DNA of 64,000 nucleotides from Candidatus Anstonellales archaeon (GTDB lineage Archaea > Micrarchaeota > Micrarchaeia > Anstonellales > J096), in the NCBI GenBank assembly GCA_038890745.1, contig JAWAFD010000005.1, forward strand, positions 22,436-86,435, given 5' to 3'. The position numbers were made by a program. This document shows, in pieces, positions 54,001 through 57,000 of this stretch; within the stretch, counting starts at the first letter, position 1, and every line of letters begins with the position of its first letter.

Positions 54001-57000
54001 CCACCCCCCTCTGGATAGAATGCAGTTCTGTTAAGAACAATACCCATTCTACCTTCGCACTCAACAAAACCCAAAACCTTTGCATCAAACTCCTCAACAG
54101 GTGGTTCTTTGTAATAGAGTATTTCTGTTTTCGGGAATTTTGAAACATCCACTTTCATTTTCTTTTCCTCTTCTTTCTCTTGATGTTTCTCCAAAAGCTC
54201 GTAGAAATTCCCTGGGACCTCTACCTTTACTCCTCTTTTTCCTCCCTCTTCAGCAATCAATTCAGGAGGAATTCCATCGCTTTCGTATAGTGTTATGAGT
54301 TCTTTTTGCGAGATTGTTTTTTTCGTGGAGAGCAAAACCTCAACCTTTCGCGCTGCGTTTTGTTTTGCGTTTTTGTATTTGTTTTTTTCCTCTTTTAGAA
54401 CATCTGCGGTAAGCTCAACCCCTTCCACAAGATCCGGGAAAAGCATGCGCAAAAATTCAGCATGCTCCTCTAAAATCTTGTGATAATCCCATGAAAATCT
54501 GTACTCCTCCTCAAACGCAAAGACCCTTCTTGCAAGCATCCTTAGATTGTATCCCCCTCCGCTGTTTGAGGGAAGCATGCCGTCTTTGAGGGTAAAGAGG
54601 AGGGTGAGGAGATGGTCTGCTGTTGCGTAAACTGCTTGAAGGGCGCCGAGGGTGGAAAAAAGCTCTTTTTTATCCATTCCAAGTTCTTTTGCAATCCTAT
54701 CCTTTTCAGCCTCCACATCCTTAGCCTCTTCTATATCAAGCCCGCCACAAAGTTTTGCATACTTTAGCAACAGATTTTCGTCTATTTTTATTCCCGCGGT
54801 TTCTTTCATTTTTTTCGCGGGGCCAAGAACAAGCTCGTAGCTTGTCGGTGAGCCGTGGCTTATCCATGGGAACCTCGCAAGCCCTGCACCCATATCTATC
54901 ACTTTTGTTTTTAGCTCCCTTGACCTTCCATCCGGAAGTTCTTCATATTGCATGAATACACAGTTTCCAAGCTCTAAACCTTTCACAAAATATTCCATGC
55001 TTGGGCCAAAATTACCCCCTCCGATCCAAACATCCTCTTGAAAAACTATCTCATCCTCTTTTATCCCGAGTGCTTTCATAAACCCTAAGTCATGCCCTAT
55101 CGCTTCCTCCTTCCAGTAGAAAAGGCCTGTTTTCTTTGTATTGAACGCATGCTGGCCTATCATAACAAAGTTGGAATAATGCCTCCCCGTAACCCCAACA
55201 TTAGCGATATCATTAAAGCGGATGCACGGCTGAGGAACAATCAGTGGATTTGCTATGGGCTCAAGTTCGCCGCTTACAACATAAGGCTGGAAAAGGTTTA
55301 TGCCTGCGATCGTGAAGTATAAATCATCCCTCCATCTCGCAACTGTTGGGTAGGGTTTTATGCTCTCGTGCCCGTGCTTCACAAAATATCTCTCTATAAC
55401 CTTCCATGTCTCAACATACCCCATTTTCTTTCCAGAAGGATTGCCTATGAACTGATACCCCGAGCAGGCAGAATCCCCGCATACCTCTCTTTTCTCTTTT
55501 GCCCAAAAATTTCTACCGCATTTTTTACATCTCTGTCTCGTAAATCCTTTCTCCACTAAAATTTTGAGTTTGTAATGTTTTTCCCATTGTTTTGAGAACT
55601 GGTTTCTCAACTCTTCTTTTGAAAGCATAAAGAGAATTCACTAAAAACCTATTTAAATCTTCGCGACATGTTACGCCAAAAAAAGAAAGAGAAGGGAGGT
55701 TAGTCTAGCTCCAGCCAGAAGTAATATGTTTCGTACTGCCCTGCAACTTCGTTTGTTGCGGCAAGCAATTCATAATCTCCAGTTAGGCCATTAAATAGGT
55801 TACCACCTTGAGTAATGTTTACGCAAAATGCGATATCTGTTTTTGCAGCAGGAACTGCTTGGTCCGCAACCGCGCATGTTTCAAACCCTCCAACACCTGT
55901 GTAGTTTCCTGCGCTTCCTGAAACAGATGTTCCGGCAATATCAACGCTGCAGCTAGTTGAGAGGGTATTTGCTGCGCTATCTGTATCAGTTCCTACAAAC
56001 CCCCAAACAGCATCTATCGCAGCTGCAGTAACTGCCTGGATTGCGCTCCAGTCAAACCCGCTTGGGGCTGCAACTGCGCACACCTCACCACCATTCGCGC
56101 TGTTCCATGCCCATGTAAAGAACATGGGTTGATTTATTCCTGGTGCCAAAACAATTCTTCCGGTTACATTTCCCCAAAATCCTGCCCATTTTTCAGTTGA
56201 GATGTTTCCGGTTAGGTTTATCTCTGTTACGTTTCCTCCCTCAGTTGTGTAGTTTGCGTTCGCCACCTGTGTATATTTTCCTGTCTGGCCTACCGTCCAT
56301 CCTTCTGCTGGCTGGATTGCTAGCAAAACCCCAGCAAGAACCAGCAAAACCAAAAACGCCTTTCCTTTCATACCATCGCCTTTGCAAACTGTCGCCTTTC
56401 TTTATTCTTCATCACTATTTTTAAATGTTTCTCCTGAGTTTTTTACATGCATACCAGAATTTTTTTGTTTTTTATGCTAATTTCATGTATGGTAAATTCT
56501 GTGGTTGTAATAAATAGTTTTGATGGAAGGGATGTTGTTTCTGGTGTTTATTACGCGCATGTGGTAGGCGATACTGTTAGGTTCGTTCCTCAAACAGGAG
56601 ATGTGACGACAACTGTTAAAAAAATTGGAAGCGGGAATTCAGTATTTCTCATAGAATCAAAGAATAACCCTGTTTATTCCGGGTTGGATGTCCTTCTTAT
56701 AAACAATGGGAACGGGGTGGAGGCATACAAAAGCGAAGACCCGTACAAAACGAATGTTGAGCTTGCGAAAAAATCCGGTGCAAAAAACTTTATTCTGATA
56801 AGTCCCTCCTATGGGTATTCTGCTGTTTCTGTTCTTCCTTACGCAAAGCTTAAGAAAGCATACCTGCTTTTTGCAACAAAAGATAATTTCAATTCCTTGA
56901 GGGATGTCCTGGAAGATGCAGAAAGCATAATGGTTTATGGGTATGTTGATGAGGAGGTTGAGAAAGAGCTTGAGGGAATGGGAAAAAGATATGAAAAAAT

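What a model noticed while it worked through the whole genome (the two positions that open the first line are those of the whole stretch)
55700..56371. Donor-strand-type surface filament of Micrarchaeota: a conserved 220-aa subunit whose domain also ends giant beta-helix [...]
g01005 (223 aa, signal peptide) and its paralogue g00521 (C2:191018-191722) are secreted beta-sandwich proteins of a family with no Pfam model and no solved relative. Members are 50-86% identical among the Micrarchaeota that have the family. It is a patchy, accessory trait: 6 of 41 sampled genomes, with one to six copies each, both as ~225-aa genes and inside 700-1585-aa reading frames. The conserved N-terminal stretch (TEGGNVTxxNLxxNxSTEKWAG, residues ~31-60) is disordered in the monomer model. 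In oligomer models it inserts into the sheet of the next copy, head to tail, which is the hallmark of donor-strand-complemented fibres (chaperone-usher pili, archaeal threads, cannulae). The same dom [...]
Evidence so far: Family: 77 homologue clusters, all unnamed or 'hypothetical', none with a Pfam domain; the own genes have no Pfam hit. Monomer model: AlphaFold2 on 32 sequences gives pLDDT 77.8, with residues 24-58 below 50, most of the rest 80-97, and mainly beta strands. The Foldseek PDB best E is 0.74 and the VIA-align best Z is 3.3 of 48,161 chains. Oligomer: three copies of residues 24-223 give ipSAE 0.66 (runs 0.64-0.67) against 0.00 for 3 controls, with partner pLDDT >=75 and >=54% of contacts shared. 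The interface is residues 31-59 of one copy on 58-89 + 211-223 of another. Adhesin: two copies of g01005 plus the last 215 aa of g01011 give ipSAE 0.72 against 0.00 for 3 controls, with pLDDT >=79 and 9 [...]
(Added by a program. Inside this text positions count along the whole contig: contig position 22,436 is position 1 of the stretch shown here. "Call 12" and the like, gene names such as g00115 and contig names such as C1 are that model's own, and its searches are not shown. The text may have been shortened before it was handed on; [...] marks where a part breaks off. The agent that wrote the report below was given it as the finding of a first reader that could run no searches.)

Follow-up and report, generated by a model that had tools for sequence, protein, structure and literature searches.

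The report
Candidate strand-donation pilus of DPANN archaea
This gene most likely encodes the repeating building block of an undescribed surface fibre of tiny host-dependent archaea, and its neighbours look like the fibre's sticky tip, its membrane-anchored base and a helper protein, which offers a testable idea for how these symbionts grip other cells.

Summary
The 223-aa secreted gene is real, has no Pfam, NCBIfam or solved relative, and is not limited to Micrarchaeota: 1,351 clusters at 50% identity; 48/201 Micrarchaeota, 47/151 Nanobdellota-type, 11/61 nanohaloarchaeal and 2/101 aenigmarchaeal genomes. Across 164 scored domains it occurs in complementary forms: stand-alone subunits with an N-terminal GGN hairpin plus acceptor motif (98); C-terminal domains on giant beta-helix/lectin proteins that lack the hairpin (23) or keep it (8); and N-terminal domains (35; 28 membrane-anchored) that keep the hairpin, lack the acceptor motif (0/35) and often carry an internal second hairpin. 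This window holds one shaft, base and tip gene plus a CWB2-containing membrane partner that co-occurs almost perfectly (45 both, 5 single, 151 neither). A predicted complex puts the base's hairpin in the subunit's groove (0.78 vs 0.00 control). Best reading: a head-to-tail strand-donation fibre, tip adhesin to plugged base. No fibre, expression or length is shown; a short stalk is not excluded. The scan earlier noted this domain elsewhere in this genome as an attachment module.

The parts
55700..56371 (-). Class A stand-alone subunit (g01005, 223 aa, Sec-type signal peptide, 7 N-glycosylation sequons, no anchor); proposed shaft subunit
56198..56257 (-). Residues 39-58: proposed donor hairpin around the GGN turn; low confidence in the monomer model
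56105..56188 (-). Residues 62-89: first core strand and the L75/F85/W87 'finger'; with the C-terminal strand (204-223) the acceptor surface in the predicted complex
56447..58120 (+). Conserved partner, 557 aa: signal peptide, CWB2 (cell-wall-binding-2)-like N-terminal half, CARDB/Ig-like region, C-terminal transmembrane helix; divergent from g01005
58144..60174 (+). Class B protein, 676 aa: family domain directly after the signal peptide, Ig-like and Cys-rich repeats, two C-terminal transmembrane stretches (596-614, 645-663); proposed base / terminator
58189..58257 (+). Class B N-terminal donor hairpin: disordered alone, docked in the class A groove in the complex
58309..58362 (+). Class B internal second hairpin-like motif (+16 from the core Trp), ordered as strands at pLDDT 96-97; proposed self-plug
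62609..64000 (-). Class C protein g01011, cut by the contig end (3492 aa if read across the 127-bp C5/C1 overlap): beta-helix repeats ending in a hairpin-less family domain (62612-63172); proposed tip adhesin

Best explanation
g01005 is the shaft subunit of an undescribed Sec-secreted, probably glycosylated surface fibre of DPANN archaea. Each subunit lends its N-terminal GGN hairpin (about residues 39-58) to the groove of the next subunit outward (first core strand 62-69, C-terminal strand), and the acceptor's L75/F85/W87 finger grips the donor's core. Polarity follows from the gene set: the tip is a giant beta-helix or lectin protein whose C-terminal domain has the groove but no hairpin (class C); the base is a protein that donates a hairpin but has its own groove filled by an internal copy and lacks the finger (class B), in most Micrarchaeota held by C-terminal membrane helices; class D proteins (cargo plus complete domain) would ride in the shaft. 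The CWB2-bearing membrane partner is the likely assembly or tethering platform. Shown: sequences, domain boundaries, gene linkage. Predicted: folds and the B-to-A interface. Inferred: polymer, polarity, plug position, partner role, adhesion to hosts or surfaces.
For: Hairpin score >=5 bits upstream of the core in 84/98 A, 30/35 B, 8/8 D, 0/23 C (C and D were split on this score, the evidence being the gap: 22.6 to 46 versus -17 to -50). Finger motif in 84/98 A, 15/23 C, 7/8 D, 0/35 B. Internal hairpin is the best window of the domain in 14/28 anchored B (20/28 peak at exactly +16), 0/98 A, 0/23 C, 0/8 D; 2/3 new B out of sample. Transmembrane stretch after residue 60 in 28/35 B, 0/98 A, 0/23 C, 0/8 D. 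B model: pLDDT 88.5, N-terminal 20 residues 39-50, internal motif 96-97. Complex of two A with B: score 0.78, best of 3 controls 0.00, runs share >=88% of contacts, partner pLDDT >=80; mark reached by 116/157 solved and 2/215 mismatched pairs; B 1-23 lies on A copy 1 (58-79, 82-89, 204-223), copy 2 barely touches B. Partner within 3 kb of 73/98 subunit genes and co-occurring in 45 of the 50 genomes that have either, of 201. Tandem arrays of several cargo-free subunit genes in Nanobdellota-type genomes (58 in 20 regions).
Against: No fibre, protein or transcript was observed. The A-to-A and A-to-C contacts were not re-run by me. The +12..+20 window and the finger pattern were chosen after seeing the data, and related genomes are not independent. 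Out of sample (20 regions from Nanobdellota-type and one nanohaloarchaeal genome) B was found in only 3 regions, none with a C-terminal membrane helix, and the finger pattern matched only 7/14 C-terminal domains. Seven B proteins lack an anchor and six of those the plug. Only 8/14 5'-complete C proteins passed a crude signal-peptide test. A parallel 48-53 / 64-69 pairing is close enough in sequence that a monomer might fold back on itself (inference).
Confidence: 0.62

Rival explanations
1. Same strand-donation joint, but the chain is a short stalk of one to a few subunits that spaces a giant adhesin above the S-layer; no long pilus forms.
For: Every sequence and model result above fits any chain length; the tip proteins are themselves 400 to more than 3900 aa; several paralogous subunits per cluster could be ordered adaptors.
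Against: Class A keeps both donor and acceptor features, which allows open-ended self-polymerisation; it is the most conserved and most frequent form, mostly 50-86% identical among close hits.
Confidence: 0.2
2. The domain is a C-terminal sorting tag that binds the CWB2-bearing partner and tethers anchorless surface proteins, with no subunit chain (the reading of earlier scan note e1-4856163).
For: The domain ends anchorless giant proteins in 31 cases; the partner is tightly linked and resembles Clostridioides CWB2 surface anchors (E 5e-16).
Against: It does not explain 98 cargo-free copies, the precise loss of the hairpin in class C, the extra hairpin and lost finger in class B, or the B-to-A score. 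Binding of the domain to the partner was not tested.
Confidence: 0.1
3. The subunits build a two-dimensional coat (S-layer-like or capsule-like lattice) anchored by class B and the CWB2 partner.
For: Secreted, sequon-rich, multi-copy; the partner matches S-layer anchor domains of SlpA and Cwp6.
Against: One donor and one acceptor site per subunit give a line, not a sheet; the family was not found in 153/201 Micrarchaeota genomes, including 0/56 and 0/36 in two families, unusual for a main cell wall.
Confidence: 0.05

Closest known systems
Sulfolobus acidocaldarius thread (Saci_0406) with putative cap Saci_0405 (PMC9715654, passages read)
   Same: Sec/SPI-secreted, glycosylated archaeal subunit, head-to-tail donor strand complementation, and a neighbouring paralogue that donates a strand but lacks the acceptor site.
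   Different: No sequence or fold match detected; here the donor lies about 20 residues inside the mature chain and looks like a hairpin; the cap is secreted and often membrane-anchored, which fixes the polarity left open for threads; giant tip adhesins and a CWB2 partner are present.
Haloarchaeal Tafi pili, TafA/TafE with tip TafC and anchor TafF (PMC11821415, PMC12337348, passages read)
   Same: Shaft, lectin-type tip and membrane anchor encoded together; strand donation; subunits of about 215 aa; no usher.
   Different: Opposite proposed polarity (in Tafi the tip donates and the anchor accepts); no dedicated signal peptidase motif in 0/721 neighbouring ORFs; the Tafi chain 9p0a scored E 2.8 and did not reach Z 2; those passages report no DPANN homologues (0 occurrences of the word).
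Chaperone-usher pili (FimH tip, FimA shaft, FimI/PapH terminator); logic recalled, FimI role also in a listing abstract
   Same: Same polarity: adhesin with C-terminal acceptor-only domain at the tip, donor-only terminator at the base.
   Different: No Ig-fold match (best Z 3.2 and 2.9), no usher or PapD-like chaperone gene seen, single-membrane archaeal envelope.
PamA/PamB pili of CPR bacteria (PMC13278184, abstract read)
   Same: Lineage-specific donor-strand pilus of an ultrasmall episymbiont, linked to host contact.
   Different: Bacterial, Ig-like, reported as exclusive to CPR, with chaperone-like genes; no homology tested directly.
CWB2 (PF04122) surface anchors of Clostridioides Cwp6/SlpA
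   Same: The partner's N-terminal half matches them (18/57 members in Pfam; profile E 5e-16).
   Different: The archaeal partner has its own membrane helix and no Gram-positive wall polysaccharide to bind; ligand unknown.

Membership tests
Donor-strand-complemented fibres (mechanistic class) | N-terminal segment unstructured alone and inserted in a neighbour's sheet | tested here: met
   Prediction only: low pLDDT alone, docked in the groove in the complex, 0.78 vs 0.00
Donor-strand-complemented fibres (mechanistic class) | Donor-less and acceptor-less end subunits encoded with the shaft | tested here: met
   Classes C and B
Donor-strand-complemented fibres (mechanistic class) | A filament is actually formed | not testable with these tools
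   Needs EM or in vitro assembly
Chaperone-usher pili | Incomplete Ig-fold pilin | tested here: inconclusive
   No match at Z>=5 among 48,161 chains for either model; absence does not exclude
Chaperone-usher pili | Usher and periplasmic chaperone genes in the cluster | tested here: inconclusive
   None recognised by eye among the 22 largest neighbour clusters; a weak YadV chaperone hit to the partner, E 0.46, is noise-level
Tafi / TasA / AbpA pili | Structural or sequence similarity to the pilin | tested here: inconclusive
   9p0a E 2.8, below Z 2 on second look; 0 PDB sequence hits at E<=10; no such Pfam in 62 members
Tafi / TasA / AbpA pili | Dedicated signal peptidase (TafD/SipW-like) in the locus | tested here: not met
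   0 of 721 neighbouring ORFs carry a recalled S26-type motif; motif test only
Tafi pili | Tip donates, anchor accepts | tested here: not met
   Here tips lack the hairpin (0/23) and anchored subunits lack the acceptor finger (0/28)
Archaeal threads (Saci_0406) | N-terminal Asp isopeptide bond and YYY motif right after the signal peptide | tested here: not met
   Not in the family consensus; features
Type IV pilins / archaellins | Class III prepilin signal with retained N-terminal helix | tested here: not met
   No Pfam/NCBIfam pilin hit in 62 members; conserved Ala after the hydrophobic stretch fits Sec/SPI (by eye)

The most novel reading that the evidence does not exclude
A pan-DPANN, chaperone-free pilus family built on a fold absent from the PDB, with a hairpin donor, a self-plugging membrane anchor, exchangeable giant tip adhesins and cargo-carrying shaft subunits, which is a main host-recognition device of uncultured Micrarchaeota, Woesearchaeota-type and nanohaloarchaeal symbionts.
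Probability: 0.35. Interest if true: 0.85.

Novelty: new variant of a known kind. Interest (0 to 1): 0.72.

Why it matters
How DPANN archaea find and hold their hosts is open; the papers read here assign their filaments to archaella or type IV pili, or leave them unassigned. This gives a complete, testable parts list (shaft, tip, base, partner) for a different fibre, present in roughly a fifth to a third of sampled genomes of three DPANN phyla, and explains how anchorless 1,000-4,000-aa adhesins could be displayed. Two confident models found no fold match above Z 3.2, so a structure may be new, and the 200-aa subunit can be expressed and imaged without culturing the organism.

Tried and rejected
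Fold searches gave nothing usable: class A model Foldseek best E 1.1, VIA best Z 3.2, second look 3/282 at Z>=2; class B model best E 0.038 with TM 0.13, VIA best Z 2.9; absence is not proof of a new fold. PDB sequence search 0 hits. Pfam and NCBIfam scans of 62 members gave only scattered weak hits. ESM Atlas returned only unnamed DPANN clusters and had no models. Expression: no RNA holder listed; the one added run left the cluster genes uncovered; no inference drawn. Presence outside DPANN: records titled 'uncultured Methanosarcinales' were rejected as evidence because two fell in the sample of the Woesearchaeota MAG's phylum and a third drew the same genome set; the one bacterial-titled MAG was alone among 101 genomes of its phylum, so mis-binning or transfer. 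Free-living archaeal phyla were not searched; my recollection of such proteins in Methanosarcinales is unconfirmed. Cluster look-up of 10 proteins gave no useful names. Sigma-70 promoter scan is not suited to archaea and found nothing above chance. A 70-residue pairwise comparison was uninformative and was replaced by phmmer. Literature searches for a description of this family found none: (0 papers); subscription journals are not covered and no supplements were read.

Full report
Observation. The ORF is at window 55700-56371 on the minus strand, 223 aa, with a hydrophobic N-terminus, 7 sequons and no later hydrophobic stretch. It has no Pfam match. A single-sequence search returns 77 clusters, unnamed or 'hypothetical', none with Pfam. 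AlphaFold2 on 46 sequences gives pLDDT 79.9, with blocks over residues 21-60 at 60, 53, 47 and 46 and a mostly beta core. Foldseek finds nothing at E<=0.001 (best 1.1) and VIA-align nothing at Z>=5 (best 3.2, rmsd 4.3, 75 aligned).

Range. A profile finds 1,351 clusters at 50% identity with E<=0.001. It matches 48 of 201 genomes of the window's phylum at E<=1e-5, concentrated in the own order and not found in two families of 56 and 36 genomes. A genome-wide scan gave 55 loci, with titles including Woesearchaeota, Nanoarchaeota, Aenigmatarchaeota and Nanohaloarchaea. A broader profile matches 47 of 151 genomes of the Woesearchaeota MAG's phylum (1-7 matches each, E<=1e-20), 2 of 101 aenigmarchaeal, 11 of 61 nanohaloarchaeal (E<=1e-10) and 1 of 101 in the phylum of one bacterial-titled MAG; each count includes the seed genome. 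Records titled 'Methanosarcinales' group with the Woesearchaeota MAG's phylum. So it is a patchy DPANN-wide family; free-living archaea were not searched.

Anatomy. The own genome has seven family domains in two clusters. In 97 loci plus the window I found 169 non-duplicate domain-bearing frames; 164 were scored (3 cut at the 3' end and 2 without a locatable core dropped). Class A (98): stand-alone, 198-270 aa. Class B (35): domain right after the signal peptide, starting at the GGN hairpin (median position 25 versus 48 in A), followed by other domains; 28 have a later transmembrane stretch. C-terminal domains (31) on proteins of 388-3954 aa split without intermediates into 8 that keep the hairpin (class D, 22.6 to 46 bits) and 23 that lack it (class C, -17 to -50 bits). 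Profile comparison confirms homology of B and C to A over about 165 columns (99.4% each). Cargo on C and D is beta-helix, LamG-type lectin, CARDB and Ig-like (18 proteins given). This window holds A (55700), B (58144) and C (62609); C runs off the contig and reads 3492 aa across the 127-bp overlap with contig C1.

Complementarity. The acceptor 'finger' pattern (conserved L75, F85, W87) is present in 84/98 A, 15/23 C, 7/8 D and 0/35 B. In its place anchored B proteins carry a second hairpin-like motif: the best-scoring window of the domain in 14/28 (chance about 6% each), peaking at +16 from the core Trp in 20/28, against 0/98 A, 0/23 C, 0/8 D and 1/7 unanchored B. Both tests were framed after seeing the data and the genomes are related. 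In 20 new regions from other phyla, 12/14 C-terminal domains lacked the hairpin, 2/3 B had the internal motif at rank 1 and 0/3 had the finger; against this, only 7/14 C-terminal domains matched the finger pattern, B occurred in only 3 regions and none had a C-terminal membrane helix.

Models. The B domain alone folds at pLDDT 88.5, its first 20 residues at 39-50 and the internal motif as strands at 96-97. I predicted beforehand (note) that B would donate and not accept. Two copies of A (24-223) with the B domain scored 0.78 (runs 0.81, 0.63, 0.78), best of three controls 0.00; runs share at least 88% of contacts, partner pLDDT at least 80; the mark was reached by 116 of 157 solved and 2 of 215 mismatched pairs, counts that hold only roughly for this job. 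B residues 1-23 lie on A copy 1 residues 25-33, 58-79, 82-89 and 204-223, with 64-69 paired to B 12-17 and A 75/84/85 on B's core; copy 2 touches B only through 75-77 and 84. This supports binding, does not show it, and only the B interface was scored. No like complex was found in the PDB, so recall of a solved structure is unlikely but not excluded.

Partner. The divergent 557-aa neighbour has a paralogue beside the second own cluster (E 1.5e-44), lies within 3 kb of 73 of 98 subunit genes (51 of 64 with at least 2.5 kb flank), and in the same 201 genomes co-occurs almost perfectly: 45 both, 3 domain only, 2 partner only, 151 neither. Its N-terminal half matches CWB2 domains of Cwp6 and SlpA; it ends in a membrane helix. 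Its role is untested.

Mechanism. The simplest account of a domain with one donor and one acceptor site (A, D), acceptor only (C) or donor with a blocked acceptor (B) is a polar head-to-tail chain: adhesin tip, repeating shaft, plugged base (0.62 for a fibre). A short stalk uses the same joint (0.2). A lattice is unlikely (0.05). How a chain grows without an usher, and what holds it where B has no anchor, is unexplained; the partner is the candidate.

Comparison. It works like archaeal threads, Tafi pili, chaperone-usher pili and CPR Pam pili, but is not shown to belong to any: no sequence or fold match; polarity opposite to that proposed for Tafi (PMC11821415, passages; PMC12337348, passages); same cap logic as Saci_0405 (PMC9715654, passages); Pam pili are reported as CPR-only (PMC13278184, abstract). 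Passages on cultured DPANN surfaces describe archaellum-like or unassigned filaments (10.1101/2023.10.27.564410; PMC7443923) and giant anchored proteins of another kind (PMC10266531); a genome paper on this order lists type IV pili only (PMC8561730, passages). Eight searches found no description of this family; supplements and subscription journals were not seen. Scan note e1-1369333 describes a DPANN fibre-subunit pair likened to TasA/CanA folds; whether it is this family was not tested. Chaperone-usher subunit roles are recalled.

Verdict. New variant of a known kind; interest 0.72, limited by the lack of any observed fibre.

Noticed in passing
L001:810-2372 (own genome C2:179309-180871); also L007, L015, L035, L037, L093: An unanchored ~520-aa class B subtype lacks both finger and internal hairpin and travels with two recurring secreted/membrane genes of about 570 and 620 aa (6 and 4 loci); possibly an alternative base complex.
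   Followed up: partly
L081, L084, L090, L091, L092, L097: Three recurring genes beside subunit arrays, two resembling by eye a vWA-domain and a DUF58-type protein (names recalled); could be an assembly helper set.
   Followed up: no
   Followed up: no
window 61599-62602: Two short genes resembling a HEPN / nucleotidyltransferase pair (by recall) lie between the base and tip genes.
   Followed up: no
window end 63874-64000 and own contigs C4, C5, C1: Contigs C4-C5 and C5-C1 overlap by exactly 127 bp, so they are probably one stretch; the C5/C1 break falls inside the tip gene.
   Followed up: yes
window 58765-59460 region of the 676-aa gene: The Ig-like plus Cys-rich part is shared with two other large own proteins at C1:132211-136476 and C2:99828-104762 (E 2.5e-62, 2.7e-46).
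   Followed up: no
L084:13629-14225, L096:6357-7076, L097:3527-4165: Nanohaloarchaeal stand-alone copies that begin at the hairpin and lack the upstream segment, a possible minor-subunit type.
   Followed up: no
L076, L079, L089, L091, L092, L080: Record titles say Methanosarcinales or a bacterium, but three of the former group with the Woesearchaeota MAG's phylum and the latter is alone in its phylum; titles or bins look unreliable.
   Followed up: partly
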